Sequence record: NC_019719.1 | Length of the DNA stretch: 41,528 nucleotides | Strand: one strand, 5' to 3' | From: Escherichia phage HK633 | Part shown: positions 29,785-39,111 of the stretch, piece after piece | How the letters are laid out: the number at the start of each line of letters is the position of its first letter | Position numbering within the stretch: the stretch's first letter is position 1 | The notes under the pieces: model-generated | Databases searched by the model: none | What the model was told of the DNA's origin: nothing | What the model saw: the letters and a program-made list of their open reading frames with translations, nothing else | Program-made: the position numbers and the translations under genes

Positions 29785-29788
<4 letters not shown>
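29384..29788 (-). CDS. Secreted protein of unknown function at the rex position, coupled to cI
   Basis: 134 aa from ATG 29788, which overlaps the cI stop (ATGA); signal peptide MIRIAALLSILLTTSANS; two Cys in the mature part; between cI and OL. Confidence 0.65.
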
Positions 29789-30736
<948 letters not shown>

Positions 30737-30744
30737 GACATTCC

Positions 30745-30776
30745 CGCTCTTACACATCCCAGCCCTGAAAAAGGGC
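30745..30776 (+). promoter_or_regulatory. nutR (boxA CGCTCTTA + boxB GCCCTGAAAAAGGGC)
   Basis: Exact lambda nutR elements read on the plus strand downstream of cro. Confidence 0.85.
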
Positions 30777-30844
30777 ATCAAATTAAACCACACCTATGGT
30801 GTATGCATTTATTTGCATACATTCAATCAATTGTTATCTAAGGA

Positions 30845-30890
30845 AATACTTACATATGGTTCGTGCAAACAAACGCAACGAGGCTCTACG
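30845..30890 (-). promoter_or_regulatory. PRE with CII binding site TTGC-N6-TTGC
   Basis: Minus strand reads TTGCGTTTGTTTGC at 30875-30888, inside the 5' end of cII. Confidence 0.6.
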
Positions 30891-31149
30891 AATCGAGAGT
30901 GCGTTGCTTAACAAAATCGCAATGCTTGGAACTGAGAAGACAGCGGAAGCTGTGGGAGTTGATAAGTCGCAGATCAGCAGGTGGAAGAGGGATTGGATTC
31001 CAAAGTTCTCAATGCTGCTTGCTGTTCTTGAATGGGGTGTCGTTGACGACGACATGGCTCGATTGGCACGACAAGTTGCTTCGATTCTCACCAATAAAAA
31101 ACGCCCGGCGGCAACCGAGCGTTCTGAACAAATCCAGATGGAATTCTGA
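30856..31149 (+). CDS. cII: Transcriptional activator CII
   Basis: 97 aa from ATG 30856 (AAGGA RBS); MVRANKRNEALRIESALLNKIAMLGTEKTAEAVGVDKSQISRWKRDW... matches lambda CII as recalled; track ORF starts upstream at 30796. Confidence 0.9.
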   Translation: MVRANKRNEALRIESALLNKIAMLGTEKTAEAVGVDKSQISRWKRDWIPKFSMLLAVLEWGVVDDDMARLARQVASILTNKKRPAATERSEQIQMEF

Positions 31150-31175
31150 GGTCATTACTGGATCAATCCACAGGA
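31095..31175 (-). ncRNA. oop: OOP-like antisense RNA with conserved terminator
   Basis: Minus strand GGUUGCCGCCGGGCGUUUUUUAUU at about 31095-31118 matches the lambda oop terminator inside the 3' end of cII; 5' end inferred from lambda. Confidence 0.45.
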
Positions 31176-31181
31176 GTAATT

Positions 31182-31343
31182 ATGACAAAACGTCGTAAGA
31201 AATACCAGGAAAAAGAAGAGATTCGACACCCTGATTCACCTGAGGGATTAGTGGTAGCCGCAGCAAATAACAGGGCGTTCGCAGAACGCCTTGTTGGTGT
31301 TTACAGACTAGCCAAAGCAGGAGTGAAACATGGGCGTCGTTAA
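31182..31343 (+). CDS. Small basic ORF at the position of the lambda O start
   Basis: 53 aa; GGAG RBS 5 nt upstream; begins at the conserved lambda-like AGGAGTnATTATGACAAA context. Confidence 0.3.
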   Translation: MTKRRKKYQEKEEIRHPDSPEGLVVAAANNRAFAERLVGVYRLAKAGVKHGRR

Positions 31344-32220
31344 GTTAGCTGATTACAGGCATAACCCTGTACAACATCAGGAGGCATCCAGTATGGGGTA
31401 TGTCTCTATACACCGCCAGTTTATGGACAGCAGGCTCTATAAGGACTCTCAGGCAGTACATCTTTGGCTTCACTTAATCCTCAAGGCTAATCACGAATCT
31501 ACTGTCGTCAATACGGATATCGGTCCGATAACTGTTGATCGCGGTCAGATGATAACTGGACGCCCGTCTCTGGTCAGAGAAACATTCATCCCCGACAACA
31601 AAGTTCGGAGCTTATTACGGACTTTTGAGTCGAAAGGGATGCTTAATATTTGCTCGATGGGGAAGAAATTTAGCCTGTTTACAATCGTTAAATATGACGA
31701 TTTTCAGGCAAAAAATTGTCCAACGGTTGTCCAACGGTTGTCCAACGCAAACACCAGTAATGGCGCGGCTCTCAGCGGAGATTGTCCAACTGCTGTCCAA
31801 CGGTTGTCCATAAACAATAATATAAATAATATCTCTAATACTGACGTATTAGAGAGTGCAACAGCAGACAAAAAGTCTGACAAGAAAAAACCTTCCGTTA
31901 GCTGTCAGGATGTTGTCGATGCTTACCACGAAATCCTTCCTGAAGCGCCAAGAATCCGCGCACTGAATGACAAGCGTAAAAACCAGATCCGAACGTTCTG
32001 GCGCAAAGCCGGAGTGATAACCCGCCAGCTTGACGGGCATGGGTTCACGATGCAGGACTGGAGAAATTATTTGAGCTACGTAGGCGAAAATTGCCGATGG
32101 ATGTTCGAAGAACGCCCAAACCATCAACGCGGAACCGTCTGGCACAAAAAGGGATTTGATTTCCTGCTTAACGACAATACCTACCTGAAAGTTCGTGAGG
32201 GTGAACACGATGACCGATAA
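31330..32220 (+). CDS. Replication initiator (O-like, iteron-binding)
   Basis: 296 aa; contains the origin iterons within the coding sequence; directly upstream of the helicase gene. Confidence 0.75.
   Translation: MGVVKLADYRHNPVQHQEASSMGYVSIHRQFMDSRLYKDSQAVHLWLHLILKANHESTVVNTDIGPITVDRGQMITGRPSLVRETFIPDNKVRSLLRTFESKGMLNICSMGKKFSLFTIVKYDDFQAKNCPTVVQRLSNANTSNGAALSGDCPTAVQRLSINNNINNISNTDVLESATADKKSDKKKPSVSCQDVVDAYHEILPEAPRIRALNDKRKNQIRTFWRKAGVITRQLDGHGFTMQDWRNYLSYVGENCRWMFEERPNHQRGTVWHKKGFDFLLNDNTYLKVREGEHDDR
31716..31845. repeat. Replication origin: TTGTCCAACGG iterons plus AT-rich region
   Basis: At least five copies of (T)TGTCCAAC between 31716 and 31811, followed by AACAATAATATAAATAATATCTCTAATA. 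Confidence 0.75.
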
Positions 32221-33646
32221 TTTTTATGCGCCGCCCCATAGCATCGAGGCAGAGCAGGCGGTGATTGGTGGATTGCTTCTGGATGATGACAGCAGTGAGC
32301 GCGTCCAGAAAGTTCTGGCGATGCTGAAGCCTGATTCATTTTACAGCCGACCACACAAAATCCTTTTCGAAGAAATAACCAGAATGCACCGTGAGCAAAA
32401 GCCAGTAGATGGCCTGACGCTTTTCGATGAACTGGAGCGTAAATCGTTAACGGCGTCTGTTGGCGGTTTTGCTTATATCGCTGAGATCGCAAAGAACACG
32501 CCGAGCGCCGCAAACATCGTTGCCTATGCAATGCAGGTTCGTGAAACCGCAATGGAACGCTACGCCATCAACCGCATGACTGAAGCGACGGAATTGCTCT
32601 ATTCCCGCAACGGAATGACTGCAACGCAGAAGTACGAAGCTATTCAGGCGATTTTCACGCAACTGACAGACCATGCAAAAACCGGATCGCGTCGCGGCCT
32701 TCGCTCATTTGGTGAGGTCATGGAAGACTGGGTTAGCGACCTTGAGAAGCGATTTGACCCGTCAGGCGAACAGCGAGGAATGAGCACAGGGATCCCATCG
32801 CTGGACAGGATGCTGTCACCGAAAGGTCTGGTGAAAGGTTCTCTGTTTGTCATTGGCGCTCGCCCTAAGATGGGGAAAACGACGCTATACAGCCAGATGG
32901 CAATCAACTGCGCAGTGCATGAGAAAAAGCCCGCTCTGATGTTCAGCCTTGAAATGCCAGGTGACCAGATACTGGAAAAACTGGTAGGGCAGAAGTCTGG
33001 TGTTAACCCGAATATTTTTTACCTTCCGGCGACAAATGACGCTGATGACGGCTATCAGGGTGATTACGATGGTGACTTCAACAGGGCGATCGAAACAGCC
33101 AATCGCTTGAGTGAAATCGACATGCTTTACATCGACGACACGCCGGGATTATCTCTGGCTCAAATCGTCAGCGAAAGCCGTCGAATCAAGCGAGAAAAAG
33201 GATGTGTTGGCATGATTCTGGTCGATTACCTGACACTAATGACCGCTGAAAAGGCCGATCGCAACGACCTTGCTTACGGCATGATCACCAAAGGACTGAA
33301 GAACCTTGCCAAAGAGCTTGATTGCGTTGTTGTGCTTCTGACGCAGCTTAACCGCGCATTGGAAAGCAGAACCAATAAACGCCCATTACCAAGTGACTCA
33401 CGAGATACAGGGCAGATTGAACAGGATTGCGATTATTGGGTGGGGATCCATCGTGAAGGTGCTTTTGATGACAGTGTTCCACCTGGTGAAACCGAACTAA
33501 TCCTTCGTCTCAATCGTCATGGCAATACCGGCACGGTGTATTGCATTCAGGCAAATGGCGCTATTTATGACACAGACCAACAGTCCGCTGAAATGCGCCG
33601 CCGTGAACGCGAGGAACCGCAATCCAAGAAGAAAGGAGGATTCTGA
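32210..33646 (+). CDS. Replicative DNA helicase (DnaB-like)
   Basis: 478 aa from ATG 32210 (GAGGGTG RBS); N-terminal PPHSIEAEQAVIGGLL DnaB motif; Walker A GARPKMGKT. Confidence 0.9.
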   Translation: MTDNFYAPPHSIEAEQAVIGGLLLDDDSSERVQKVLAMLKPDSFYSRPHKILFEEITRMHREQKPVDGLTLFDELERKSLTASVGGFAYIAEIAKNTPSAANIVAYAMQVRETAMERYAINRMTEATELLYSRNGMTATQKYEAIQAIFTQLTDHAKTGSRRGLRSFGEVMEDWVSDLEKRFDPSGEQRGMSTGIPSLDRMLSPKGLVKGSLFVIGARPKMGKTTLYSQMAINCAVHEKKPALMFSLEMPGDQILEKLVGQKSGVNPNIFYLPATNDADDGYQGDYDGDFNRAIETANRLSEIDMLYIDDTPGLSLAQIVSESRRIKREKGCVGMILVDYLTLMTAEKADRNDLAYGMITKGLKNLAKELDCVVVLLTQLNRALESRTNKRPLPSDSRDTGQIEQDCDYWVGIHREGAFDDSVPPGETELILRLNRHGNTGTVYCIQANGAIYDTDQQSAEMRRREREEPQSKKKGGF

Positions 33647-38206: not shown

Positions 38207-38666
38207 TCAACGCAAGGCGTTCCTCGATATGCTGGCGTGGTCAGAGGGAACTGATAACGGACGTCAGAAAACCAGAAATCATGGTTATGACGTCATTGTT
38301 GGCGGAGAGCTATTCACTGATTACTCCGATCACCCTCGCAAACTTGTCACGCTAAACCCCAAACTCAAATCAACAGCAGCCGGACGTTACCAGCTTCTTT
38401 CCCGTTGGTGGGATGCCTATCGTAAGCAGCTTGGCCTGAAAGACTTCTCTCCGAAAAGCCAGGACGCTGTGGCATTGCAGCAGATTAAAGAGCGTGGCGC
38501 TTTACCGATGATTGATCGGGGTGATATTCGTCAGGCTATTGATCGTTGCAGCAATATTTGGGCTTCATTGCCCGGTGCTGGCTACGGTCAGTATGAACAC
38601 AAGATCGATAGTCTGATTGCCAAATTCAAAGAAGCTGGCGGGGTGGTTAATGAAACTTCGCTATAA
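38190..38666 (+). CDS. R: Endolysin R (lytic transglycosylase)
   Basis: 158 aa; matches lambda R as recalled ([24 protein letters not shown]...). Confidence 0.95.
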
Positions 38667-39111
38667 GCTGGTTATTTCTGCTTTCCTCCTGACTTTATTC
38701 GGTTCTCTCGTCTGGTCAGCTAATCATTACCACAATAAAGCCATTGAATACAAAAAACAGCGCGACGAAAACGCTATGGCATTAGATTCGGCTATGGCGA
38801 CGATCTCTGATATGCAGAAGCGTCAACGTGACGTAGCAGAACTCGATGCCAGATATACAAAGGAGCTTGCTGATGCTAACGCGACTATCGAAAGTCTCCG
38901 TGCTGATGTTTCTGCTGGTCGTAAGCGCCTGCAAGTCGCCGCCACCTGTGCAAAGTCAACGACCGGAGCCAGCAGCATGGGCGATGGAGAAAGCCCAGGA
39001 CTTACAGCAGATGCTGAACTCAATTATTACCGTCTCCGAAGTGGAATCGACAAGATAACCGCGCAGGTTAACTACCTGCAGGAATACATCAGGACGCAAT
39101 GCCTGAAATAA
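38650..39111 (+). CDS. Rz: Spanin inner-membrane subunit Rz
   Basis: 153 aa from ATG 38650; N-terminal TM helix then coiled coil; overlaps R 3' end. Confidence 0.8.
   Translation: MKLRYKLVISAFLLTLFGSLVWSANHYHNKAIEYKKQRDENAMALDSAMATISDMQKRQRDVAELDARYTKELADANATIESLRADVSAGRKRLQVAATCAKSTTGASSMGDGESPGLTADAELNYYRLRSGIDKITAQVNYLQEYIRTQCLK
38873..39058 (+). CDS. Rz1: Spanin outer-membrane lipoprotein Rz1 (embedded in Rz, +1 frame)
   Basis: 61 aa from ATG 38873 with AAGGAG RBS 7 nt upstream; lipobox VVSAC then Pro-rich region. Confidence 0.65.
   Translation: MLTRLSKVSVLMFLLVVSACKSPPPVQSQRPEPAAWAMEKAQDLQQMLNSIITVSEVESTR

What the first reader, a model, noticed from the sequence alone, without database searches (positions are those of the whole stretch)
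31150..31343. Mosaic junction at the start of the replication module with a possible 53-aa ORF
Sequence through the cII-O intergenic region, including the oop terminator and the AGGAGTnATTATGACAAA start context, is lambda-like, but the reading frame that begins there runs only 53 codons before the unrelated iteron-type initiator gene starts at 31330. This looks like a recombination joint where the lambda O start was retained upstream of a P22-type replication module. Whether the highly basic 53-aa product is made or functional is open.
Basis: partly seen in the sequence, partly recalled or inferred. Interest (0 to 1): 0.4.

Follow-up and report, generated by a model that had tools for sequence, protein, structure and literature searches.

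The report
Known lambdoid junction with conserved small gene
The site is the well-known recombination joint between the cII/oop region and the replication genes of lambda-like phages, and the 53-codon frame is not a leftover but a conserved, already catalogued small gene of unknown function (HK97 gp53 / Sf6 gp42) that always overlaps the start of the replication initiator gene.

Summary
Identity to lambda (325/334) runs through cII, oop, the ribosome-binding site and ATGACAAA, then stops at 31189/31190. A 53-codon ORF (31182-31343) overlaps the initiator start (31330) by 14 nt.

The shared start context is the roughly 35-nt lambdoid "boundary sequence", annotated as bsq5 in Sf6 and described by Hayes et al. 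2012. P22, HK022, HK97 and ES18 share it whatever lies on either side.

The ORF is a real gene:
- It is 100% identical to HK97 gp53 / Sf6 gp42 and matches PHROG 1331.
- It is in 571 of 5426 complete E. coli genomes.
- Median dN/dS is 0.11 across diverged Enterobacterales relatives.
- It always directly precedes and overlaps an initiator, of at least four classes.

P22 and HK022 carry an unrelated small ORF (orf48, DUF2740) in the same slot.

Not described in any paper I found, and only moderately supported:
- Both ORF families embed a conserved mRNA hairpin inside an extended stem-loop predicted to cover the initiator's ribosome-binding site. This suggests structure-gated translational coupling.
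- In 17 of 20 relatives the cassette includes the initiator's first ten codons (MGVVKLADYR). This peptide resembles the lambda O ClpX degron.

The protein's own function remains unknown.

The parts
31095..31171 (-). oop antisense RNA equivalent (lambda 38599-38675), overlapping the 3' end of cII; terminator stem-loop at 31098-31125
   Evidence: 74/77 identical to lambda by anchored alignment. Terminator-like hairpin plus T-run found on the minus strand. The HK629 record annotates the same stretch as oop-like.
31157..31191 (+). Lambdoid boundary sequence (Sf6 'bsq5'; 'sequence 5' of Clark 2001 / Hayes 2012). It holds the oop 5' end, the pO -10 (CATAAT on the minus strand, 31179-31184), the SD AGGAG (31172-31176) and the ATG used by lambda O, P22 orf48 or gp53.
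   Evidence: 34/35 identical to P22 with unrelated flanks (10/57 and 42/152). 30/33 identical to lambda over 31157-31189. Annotated in the Sf6 record. Described in PMC3349717.
31182..31343 (+). Small gene of the HK97 gp53 / Sf6 gp42 / ES18 gp58 family (PHROG 1331): 53 aa, pI 10.7. Predicted as a disordered basic N-tail (1-19) followed by a two-helix hairpin (20-28, 31-50).
   Evidence: PHROG match at E 1.4e-37. 100% identical protein in HK97, Sf6, HK629, HK106 and Stx phages. Median dN/dS 0.11 and all indels in frame. AF2 mean pLDDT 68.
31203..31214 (.). TACCAGGAAAAA block with no synonymous variation. It overlaps the position expected for the pO -35 (31202-31207, TGGTAT on the minus strand). 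The same ACCAGGAnAAA block sits at the same offset in the unrelated orf48 ORFs.
   Evidence: Codon tables give TAC 12/12, CAG 14/14, GAA 13/13 and AAA 12/12, while neighbouring K and E codons vary. The block is seen in orf48 alignments. The P22 record annotates the oop promoter at the equivalent place. The function is inferred.
31224..31339 (+). Predicted extended mRNA stem-loop. Its base pairs gp53 codons 15-21 with the initiator's SD (31319-31323), AUG and codons 2-4.
   Evidence: Minimum-free-energy fold of the window leader. 82.9% of cells paired in 15 diverged relatives against 29-48% for slid controls; covariation 0.170 against 0.145 (0/500 shuffles reach it). The structure was derived from the window itself, and a shuffle control of the long-range duplex is weak. 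Moderately supported.
31268..31296 (+). Apex hairpin, core GGGCGTTC-GCA-GAACGCC. It encodes N-R-A-F-A-E-R-L.
   Evidence: -17.3 kcal/mol in the window. More stable than at least 95% of synonymous recodings in 13 of 17 relatives. Compensatory changes are present. The plus strand is more stable than the minus strand in 16 of 17.
31319..31343 (+). Coupling junction: internal SD AGGAG (31319-31323), initiator ATG (31330) and small-ORF stop TAA (31341-31343), giving a 14-nt overlap.
   Evidence: The same 14-nt overlap occurs in 17 of 17 relatives. The Gly49 codon is only GGA or GGG (8/8), whereas other Gly codons vary freely.
31330..31360 (+). First ten codons of the initiator (MGVVKLADYR), which travel with the small gene. 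The right-hand mosaic joint is at 31360/31361.
   Evidence: HK97, Stx-phage and ES18 homology ends here, while their initiators belong to other classes. LADYR is conserved with free synonymous change. It resembles the lambda O degron TNTAKILNFGR; this resemblance is an inference.
31330..32220 (+). Replication initiator (Sf6 gp43 / HK022 O type, PHROG 345) with the iteron origin at about 31716-31814.
   Evidence: 100% identical to Sf6 gp43 and 67% to HK022 O. PHROG 345 at E 5.9e-85. Iterons read directly from the sequence. The Sf6 rep_origin annotation maps here.

Best explanation
Shown: this is the standard joint between the cII/oop segment and the replication module of lambdoid phages.
- The two sides meet in a roughly 35-nt sequence conserved across lambdoid phages.
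- That sequence carries the oop 5' end, the pO -10, a strong Shine-Dalgarno and an ATG.
- It therefore serves as a recurrent site of homologous exchange.

Shown: what follows the shared ATG differs between phages.
- In lambda the ATG opens O.
- In P22 and HK022 it opens orf48 (DUF2740).
- Here it opens the 53-codon HK97 gp53-family gene.
- That gene is a genuine, selected protein-coding gene. It is the first cistron of the replication cluster and always abuts and overlaps an initiator gene.

Inferred, the most likely mechanism:
- The small cistron is translated from the strong boundary-sequence ribosome-binding site.
- Its mRNA folds into an extended stem-loop whose base occludes the initiator's SD and AUG.
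- Ribosomes translating codons 15-21 open this structure and terminate 11 nt past the initiator AUG.
- Initiator synthesis would then be coupled to, and set by, translation of the small gene.

Inferred:
- The cassette usually also supplies the initiator's first ten residues (GVVKLADYR). These probably replace the lambda O N-terminal ClpX degron.
- The basic helical protein itself probably acts with the initiator at or before origin loading. Its target is unknown.
For: Joint and boundary sequence:
- Lambda identity is 325/334 up to 31189, then 42/154. P22 is identical only across 31157-31191, 34/35.
- The boundary is annotated as bsq5 in Sf6. The cII-oop-'orf'-O-P organisation is described in PMC3349717.

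Real gene:
- PHROG 1331 at E 1.4e-37.
- Found in 95 phage records and 571 of 5426 complete E. coli genomes.
- Substitutions fall 42/25/104 by codon position, and median dN/dS is 0.11 over 105 pairs.

Always with an initiator:
- A 14-nt overlap in 17 of 17 relatives, across window/HK022-type, lambda O/P22 gp18-type and ENT1-type initiators.
- Distant members overlap by 26 nt (Phage_rep_O initiator) or 4 nt (HTH_36/DnaD_N initiator).
- DUF2740 ORFs stay next to the initiator even when another gene separates them from cII.

Coupling:
- The internal SD is kept by a codon choice restricted to GGA/GGG.
- The window's minimum-free-energy fold pairs 31224-31242 with 31318-31339.
- 82.9% of cells are paired across 15 relatives, against 29-48% for slid controls.
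- The upstream segment most complementary to the ribosome-binding site is the same aligned segment in 16 of 17 sequences.
- The unrelated orf48 family has the same architecture. Its RNAalifold consensus is -29.8 kcal/mol, with a CGUGAUC/GGUCAUG stem over the initiator AUG.
- The apex hairpins beat synonymous recodings in both families.

N-terminal tag:
- LADYR is conserved with synonymous variation.
- ES18 gp59 is lambda O with residues 1-18 replaced by MGVVKLADYRPLEPVV.
- The lambda O degron is TNTAKILNFGR.
Against: - No expression or functional data exist for this protein in the libraries searched.
- The long-range pairing is not clearly better than chance in controls. Dinucleotide shuffles of the upstream part reach the observed duplex energy in 4-224 of 300 trials, depending on the sequence. 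Synonymous recoding puts only 7 of 17 sequences at or below 0.05.
- The tested structure was taken from the window's own fold, which favours it.
- The initiator has its own good SD, so it could be translated independently.
- One distant relative (L026) lacks the MGVVKLADYR tag, and ENT1 keeps only MGVVKLAD.
- Two unrelated proteins occupy the same slot and lambda has none. This argues that the protein's function is dispensable or accessory rather than core to replication.
Confidence: 0.75

Rival explanations
1. The ORF is a meaningless by-product of recombination. On this view the lambda O start was left upstream of a foreign initiator, and the frame happens to stay open for 53 codons.
For: The lambda identity does end eight bases into the ORF. 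Lambda itself has no such gene.
Against: - Median dN/dS is 0.11, with a strong third-position bias and only in-frame indels, across genera whose synonymous sites are saturated.
- The same protein is present where the upstream DNA is not lambda-like.
- The profile search of 1.84 billion representative proteins finds a coherent family of short proteins.
Confidence: 0.02
2. The ORF is only a leader cistron. On this view what matters is that it is translated, delivering ribosomes and opening the structure at the initiator start. This is how tap/repA works in IncFII plasmids and repY/repZ in IncI plasmids. The peptide itself would have no role.
For: The invariant overlap, the embedded SD and the predicted occlusion of the ribosome-binding site. 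Two unrelated peptides fill the same slot with the same RNA architecture.
Against: Amino-acid conservation extends over segments with free synonymous change, such as P20, G22, L23, V24 and A27. A mere spacer would not show dN/dS of 0.1. No antisense RNA targets the leader's own start, because oop runs the other way.
Confidence: 0.12
3. The protein is an independent accessory gene, for example for host takeover, counter-defence or modulation of the lysis-lysogeny decision. On this view it merely occupies a permissive, variable slot at a module boundary, and its link to the initiator is positional only.
For: The slot is variable: empty in lambda, DUF2740 in P22 and HK022, gp53 here. This is typical of accessory regions. 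The family is narrow, orphan and confined to Enterobacterales prophages. There are no replication-related domains.
Against: It never occurs away from an initiator start in any of the 20 loci examined. In 17 of 20 relatives it travels with a conserved N-terminal peptide of the initiator, across initiator classes. There are no PADLOC matches, although anti-defence proteins are not in that library.
Confidence: 0.25
4. The conserved hairpin and extended stem-loop is not a translational gate. It could instead be an RNase III or RNase E processing or stability element, or a weak transcription attenuator, on the pR transcript between cII and the initiator.
For: It is a long irregular stem of about 44 pairs, of the kind RNase III cuts in phage early mRNAs. 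The plus-strand hairpin is conserved in both ORF families. In the window the hairpin is followed by UUGUUGGUGUUU.
Against: The U-tract is too poor for the terminator scan on the plus strand and is absent after the orf48 hairpin. There is no Rfam match. The base of the stem coincides with the initiator ribosome-binding site in both families, which a mere processing site would not require.
Confidence: 0.2

Closest known systems
HK97 gp53 / Sf6 gp42 / ES18 gp58 / ST104 orf27 (PHROG 1331), a conserved hypothetical protein between cII and the initiator
   Same: The protein sequence is identical to HK97, Sf6, HK629 and HK106. The position, the 14-nt overlap with the initiator and the boundary sequence upstream are the same.
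   Different: Nothing of substance differs. Here it is combined with a lambda/434-type cII-oop segment on the left and the Sf6/HK022-type initiator on the right. HK97 has its own cII and a P22 gp18-like O.
Lambdoid boundary sequence 5 (bsq5) at the cII-oop/O junction, as in lambda, P22 and HK620 (Clark et al. 2001; Hayes et al. 2012, PMC3349717)
   Same: The same conserved 33-35 nt run from the oop 5' end to the ATG. Flanks are unrelated in different phages. The hybrid pO has a lambda-type -10 and a non-lambda -35.
   Different: In lambda the ATG opens O directly. Here it opens the small gene.
P22 orf48 / HK022 and HK620 hkaW (Pfam DUF2740)
   Same: Shared features:
- the same slot and the same SD/ATG;
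- the same ACCAGGAnAAA block at +22;
- a similar length of 47-48 aa;
- a stop overlapping the initiator start;
- an embedded plus-strand hairpin about 35 nt before the initiator AUG, and predicted occlusion of that AUG.
   Different: There is no detectable sequence or profile similarity (hhalign probability 0.6%). The overlap is 8 nt (ATGAGTAA), not 14. No conserved initiator N-terminal peptide extends beyond the overlap.
Leader-peptide-coupled Rep translation in plasmids (IncFII tap-repA; IncI/IncB repY-repZ). This comparison rests on established knowledge and was not tested here.
   Same: A short ORF immediately upstream of and overlapping a replication initiator gene, with the initiator's ribosome-binding site predicted to be closed by mRNA structure unless the leader is translated.
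   Different: The plasmid systems are controlled by an antisense RNA against the leader region. Here oop is antisense to cII instead. In this family the peptide is also strongly conserved as a protein.
Lambda O N-terminal ClpX degron (N-motif 1, TNTAKILNFGR; PMC12723719)
   Same: Extreme N-terminal position on an origin-binding initiator. The pattern is similar: small/hydrophobic, then K, then I/L, then L/A, then N/D, then F/Y, then an optional G, then R. In ES18 this peptide occupies the place of lambda O residues 1-18.
   Different: This is only a resemblance between short peptides. No degradation data exist, and the sequence is not alignable with statistical support.

Membership tests
HK97 gp53 family (PHROG 1331) | Full-length match to the family profile, or identity to named members | tested here: met
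   PHROG 1331 at E 1.4e-37, residues 1-53 of 53. 100% identity to HK97 gp53 and Sf6 gp42.
HK97 gp53 family (PHROG 1331) | Located directly upstream of, and overlapping, a replication initiator gene and downstream of a cII-like gene | tested here: met
   Window anatomy. The same arrangement is found in 17 close and 3 distant relatives.
HK97 gp53 family (PHROG 1331) | Evolves as a protein-coding sequence | tested here: met
   Substitutions by codon position are 42/25/104. Median dN/dS is 0.11.
Lambdoid boundary sequence 5 (bsq5) | A conserved block of about 33-35 nt spanning the oop 5' end to the first ATG of the replication region | tested here: met
   31157-31191 is 34/35 identical to P22. 30/33 is identical to lambda over 31157-31189. 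The block is identical in HK97, HK022 and ES18. Sf6 annotates it as bsq5.
Lambdoid boundary sequence 5 (bsq5) | Sequence on either side is unrelated between phages that share the block | tested here: met
   P22 flanks are 10/57 and 42/152 identical. The lambda right flank is 42/154.
Lambda oop RNA / pO | 77-nt antisense transcript region with a rho-independent terminator inside the cII 3' end | tested here: met
   74/77 identity to lambda 38599-38675. Terminator found at 31125..31098.
Lambda oop RNA / pO | A functional promoter with -10 and -35 elements upstream of the oop start | tested here: inconclusive
   The -10 CATAAT is kept (31179-31184). The -35 position reads TGGTAT, only 2/6 to consensus, and the promoter scan did not call it. 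P22 is annotated with TGGTCA at the same place. The block 31203-31214 is invariant at synonymous sites.
Lambda oop RNA / pO | The transcript is actually made | not testable with these tools
   No expression data are available. Rfam has no matching family.
DUF2740 (P22 orf48) | Sequence or profile similarity to PF10872 | tested here: not met
   No Pfam hit. hhalign of A1 against A2 gives probability 0.6% with 1 aligned column.
P22-type replication module (gp18 + gp12) | Initiator homologous to P22 gp18 | tested here: not met
   Only 25% identity over 116 C-terminal residues, E 0.002. By contrast it is 100% identical to Sf6 gp43 and 67% to HK022 O.
P22-type replication module (gp18 + gp12) | A DnaB-type helicase gene follows the initiator, rather than a lambda P-type loader | tested here: met
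   DnaB and DnaB_C domains at E 3e-31 and 3e-60. 31% identity to P22 gp12 and 99.6% to HK022 P.
Leader-ORF translational coupling of a replication initiator (works like IncFII tap-repA) | The leader stop overlaps or abuts the initiator start | tested here: met
   A 14-nt overlap in 17 of 17 relatives; 4 or 26 nt in distant members.
Leader-ORF translational coupling of a replication initiator (works like IncFII tap-repA) | The initiator's ribosome-binding site is sequestered in mRNA structure that leader translation would open | tested here: inconclusive
   Predicted in the window's minimum-free-energy fold. 82.9% paired in relatives against 29-48% for slid controls. The orf48 consensus shows the analogous stem. 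However, the shuffle and recoding controls are weak.
Leader-ORF translational coupling of a replication initiator (works like IncFII tap-repA) | An antisense RNA acts on the leader region | tested here: not met
   oop starts at 31171 and runs leftwards into cII, away from the leader.
ClpX N-motif-1 degron (lambda O tag) | Unstructured extreme N-terminal peptide resembling TNTAKILNFGR | tested here: inconclusive
   GVVKLADYR shares the K-[IL]-[LA]-[ND]-[FY]-(G)-R pattern. It is too short for statistical support.
ClpX N-motif-1 degron (lambda O tag) | ClpXP-dependent degradation conferred by the peptide | not testable with these tools
   This needs in vivo half-life measurements or in vitro ClpXP assays.

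The most novel reading that the evidence does not exclude
The slot between cII and the initiator in lambdoid phages is a structured translational gate rather than a passive junction. Two unrelated small genes (the gp53 family and DUF2740/orf48) have each been laid over the same RNA design. That design is an apex hairpin about 35 nt before the initiator AUG, inside an extended stem-loop whose base hides the initiator's ribosome-binding site. Initiator synthesis would therefore depend on translation of the small gene. The gp53 cassette additionally carries a portable N-terminal degron-like tag (GVVKLADYR) that it donates to initiators of several unrelated classes. The basic gp53 protein may act on that tag, or on its own mRNA hairpin, to tune initiator level.
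Probability: 0.3. Interest if true: 0.5.

Novelty: already known. Interest (0 to 1): 0.25.

Why it matters
As submitted, the finding matters little. The joint and the ORF are textbook lambdoid mosaicism, already annotated (Sf6 bsq5, HK97 gp53) and discussed in print.

What could matter is the control logic. If initiator translation in a large group of temperate phages is gated by a small upstream cistron, that would add a post-transcriptional checkpoint between the cII lysogeny decision and replication. The group includes many Stx-converting phages and prophages in about 10% of complete E. coli genomes.

The same would hold if the cassette supplies a ClpXP degron. Together these would explain why this junction is so conserved. 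They would also give a function to two widespread orphan protein families.

Tried and rejected
- Domain and structure searches gave nothing for the 53-aa protein. This covers Pfam, NCBIfam and PADLOC, PDB by sequence profile and Foldseek against PDB with the AF2 model.
- A profile search of 1.84 billion representative proteins found only 28 proteins, nearly all short, and no link to a larger family.
- Remote homology between the gp53 family and DUF2740 was rejected by hhalign.
- Rfam gave no hit at E<=1 over 30400-32300.
- A canonical sigma-70 pO promoter was not called by the scan, because the -35 is poor.
- The internal hairpin is not an intrinsic terminator. The plus-strand U-tract is too weak, and the orf48 hairpin has none.
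- A minus-strand reading of the hairpin is disfavoured. The minus strand is less stable in 16 of 17 and 8 of 8 sequences.
- A frameshift fusion of gp53 to the initiator is unlikely. The initiator is in the +1 frame, and I saw no slippery run on reading the overlap.
- The long-range pairing with the initiator's ribosome-binding site could not be made statistically convincing by dinucleotide shuffles or synonymous recoding.
- Literature searches for HK97 gp53, DUF2740 and translational coupling in lambdoid replication found no functional study. The 'orf48' of Silas et al. is an unrelated numbering.
- A scan of viral contigs for DUF2740 relatives returned only near-identical copies. Diverged ones were therefore fetched one at a time.
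- In one search I gave cII in the wrong frame (30857 instead of 30856). That null result for cII is meaningless.
Full report
**1. What is in the sequence.**

The window is a mosaic lambdoid, P22-like phage genome. Its closest relatives over the right half are HK620, HK542 and Sf6. Across the finding itself the best match is vB_EcoP-683R2, at 99.4%.

Around the finding the order of features is as follows:
- 434-type cro, 30522-30736;
- a lambda/434-type nutR-cII segment, with cII at 30856-31149 differing from lambda cII by one residue;
- the oop region;
- a 53-codon ORF, 31182-31343;
- a 296-aa iteron-type initiator, 31330-32220;
- a DnaB-type helicase, 32210-33646.

- AGGAG at 31172-31176;
- ATG at 31182;
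- the oop terminator at 31125..31098 on the minus strand;
- the initiator ATG at 31330, overlapping the small ORF's TAA by 14 nt.

**2. Where the homology breaks.**

I anchored ungapped alignments on the ATG.
- Lambda is 325/334 identical from the cII start to ATGACAAA (31189). It is 42/154 identical afterwards.
- The lambda-like block begins at about 30742, just after the 434-type cro.
- P22 is identical only across 31157-31191 (34/35), with random-level flanks.
- HK022, HK97 and ES18 share the same roughly 35 nt whatever precedes or follows.

The Sf6 GenBank record annotates this block as "bsq5; boundary sequence". Hayes et al. 2012 (PMC3349717) make three relevant points:
- They describe a 33-nt conserved sequence in 23 lambdoid phages.
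- They state that its ATG is the start of lambda O, of P22 orf48 homologues, or of HK97 gp53 homologues.
- They note that a lambda/P22 hybrid has a lambda -10 and a P22 -35 for pO.

The joint is therefore real, but it is a known and recurrent one.

**3. The ORF is a gene.**

Identity and distribution:
- It matches PHROG 1331 over its whole length at E 1.4e-37.
- The protein is 100% identical in HK97 (gp53), Sf6 (gp42), HK629, HK106 and several Stx phages.
- tblastn finds it in 95 phage records.
- The DNA is in 571 of 5426 complete E. coli genomes.

Selection:
- I collected diverged copies from Edwardsiella, Trabulsiella, Yokenella, Enterobacter, Citrobacter, Chimaeribacter, Entomohabitans, Cronobacter and Erwinia.
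- In 17 sequences the minimum substitutions by codon position are 42/25/104, and all indels are in frame.
- Nei-Gojobori dN/dS has a median of 0.11 and a maximum of 0.29 over 105 pairs.

Breadth and fold:
- The family is narrow. There are 68 clusters at 90% identity and 28 representatives at 50% identity, nearly all short, all in Enterobacterales, and none named.
- There is no Pfam, NCBIfam, PADLOC or PDB relative.
- AlphaFold2 predicts a disordered basic tail (residues 1-19) and a two-helix hairpin (20-28, 31-50), with mean pLDDT 68.

**4. It belongs with the initiator.**

- In all 17 relatives the stop overlaps the initiator ATG by the same 14 nt.
- The initiators fall into at least three classes: window/HK022-like, lambda O/P22 gp18-like, and an ENT1 type.
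- Two more distant members overlap a Phage_rep_O initiator by 26 nt and an HTH_36/DnaD_N initiator by 4 nt.
- The Gly49 codon that forms the internal SD is only GGA or GGG. Other Gly codons use all four.

**5. A second joint and a travelling N-terminal tag.**

Homology with HK97, the Stx phages and ES18 continues to 31360, ten codons into the initiator. It then stops.

- The decapeptide MGVVKLADYR is kept in front of different initiator classes.
- LADYR lies beyond the overlap and shows free synonymous change, so it is selected as protein.
- ES18 gp59 is lambda O with residues 1-18 replaced by MGVVKLADYRPLEPVV.
- Lambda O residues 2-12 (TNTAKILNFGR) are the N-motif-1 ClpX degron (PMC12723719).
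- The two peptides share the pattern K-[IL]-[LA]-[ND]-[FY]-(G)-R.

I infer, and have not shown, that the tag is the functional counterpart of the lambda O degron.

**6. The same slot in P22 and HK022.**

P22 orf48 and an unannotated HK022 ORF use the same SD/ATG and overlap the initiator by 8 nt.
- They belong to Pfam DUF2740.
- They are unrelated to gp53 by profile comparison.
- In Klebsiella, Cronobacter, Pluralibacter and metagenomic relatives they always abut the initiator. This holds even where another gene lies between them and cII.

**7. Nucleic-acid signals inside the ORFs.**

(a) An invariant block.
- Codons 8-11 (TACCAGGAAAAA, 31203-31214) show no synonymous change.
- The same ACCAGGAnAAA block sits at the same offset in orf48.
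- It overlaps the expected pO -35, by analogy with the P22 annotation.
- However, it is also kept where no cII/oop precedes the ORF. Its role is therefore unsettled.

(b) An apex hairpin.
- A plus-strand hairpin lies at 31268-31296, at -17.3 kcal/mol.
- It is more stable than at least 95% of synonymous recodings in 13 of 17 relatives.
- It shows compensatory changes. For example, when residue 32 changes from Ala to Pro or Ser, Arg36 is CGG in 4 of 4 cases. When residue 32 is Ala, CGG occurs in 0 of 11.
- orf48 ORFs carry a different hairpin at the equivalent place. It too beats recodings, and it is stronger on the plus strand.

(c) An extended stem-loop.
- In the window's minimum-free-energy fold the hairpin caps a stem-loop spanning 31224-31339. 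Its base pairs codons 15-21 with the initiator SD, AUG and codons 2-4.
- Projected on 15 relatives, 82.9% of cells pair, against 29-48% in slid controls. Covariation exceeds all 500 shuffles.
- RNAalifold on the orf48 family gives a -29.8 kcal/mol consensus with a CGUGAUC/GGUCAUG stem over the initiator AUG.

Caveats:
- The projected structure came from the window itself.
- Dinucleotide-shuffle and recoding controls of the long-range duplex are weak.

I rate the apex hairpin as supported. I rate the occlusion of the ribosome-binding site as plausible.

**8. Mechanism proposed.**

Shown:
- a recombination-prone boundary sequence;
- a selected small gene;
- an obligatory overlap with the initiator.

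Inferred:
- The small gene is translated from the strong boundary ribosome-binding site, and its translation opens the structure that hides the initiator's ribosome-binding site.
- The cassette supplies a degron-like N-terminus.
- The basic protein acts with the initiator.

Rivals, in the order I rank them:
- an independent accessory protein that merely occupies a variable slot;
- an RNA processing or attenuation role for the stem-loop;
- a leader-only role for the ORF;
- an accidental ORF, which the codon-level evidence rejects.

**9. Verdict.**

The feature itself is already known and annotated, so interest is low. The structured-gate and portable-tag readings are appear in none of the papers my searches returned and are testable.

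Noticed in passing
window 30241-30243 (minus strand), within cI 29785-30417: The 434-type cI repressor gene has an in-frame TGA where Sf6's identical repressor has Trp (…GVSVD*LLNG against …GVSVDWLLNG). The repressor is therefore truncated after 58 residues. This could be a clear-plaque allele, a defective prophage or a sequencing error.
   Followed up: partly
window about 30737-30745: There is another sharp mosaic joint. 434-type cro ends at 30736, and near-perfect lambda identity starts at about 30742. This is the classical right boundary of the imm434 region.
   Followed up: partly
window 31203-31214; P22 locus L012 about 1370-1382: The block (T/G)ACCAGGA(A/C)AAA is invariant at synonymous sites in two unrelated small-ORF families. 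It is also kept in L111 and L113, where no cII/oop lies directly upstream. A role as the pO -35 therefore does not fully explain it.
   Followed up: partly
window 31268-31296; L012 1425-1454 and relatives: The two unrelated small ORFs (the gp53 family and DUF2740) each embed a conserved plus-strand GC-rich hairpin about 35 nt upstream of the initiator AUG. These hairpins coincide with their most conserved amino-acid blocks, FAER and QPGRFRAE.
   Followed up: yes
L014 (MAG labelled Bacillota) and L017 (assembly labelled Chryseobacterium): Contigs assigned to non-enterobacterial taxa carry the enterobacterial gp53 cassette at 100% and 83% protein identity. The L017 contig also carries a window-type initiator; the L014 initiator was not examined. 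Contamination or mis-binning is the likely cause.
   Followed up: no
L111 655-1191 and L113 407-1204: In a Cronobacter prophage and a metagenomic phage, an extra gene lies between cII and the DUF2740 ORF. The extra gene encodes 178 aa of unknown function in one case and a 265-aa ParB-like HTH protein in the other. This shows that the cII-initiator interval can accept further insertions, while the small ORF stays glued to the initiator.
   Followed up: no
window 31715-31810 (minus strand): The promoter scan reports two sigma-70-like matches (TGGACA-18-GACAAT) inside the iterons, pointing leftwards. They are probably a by-product of the repeated iteron sequence.
   Followed up: no
L001 (Sf6 RefSeq record) 1146-1800: The Sf6 repressor (gene 39) is not listed as a CDS in the RefSeq feature table. 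My translation of that stretch goes out of frame after about residue 140. This may be a frameshift in the deposited sequence or a pseudogene call.
   Followed up: no
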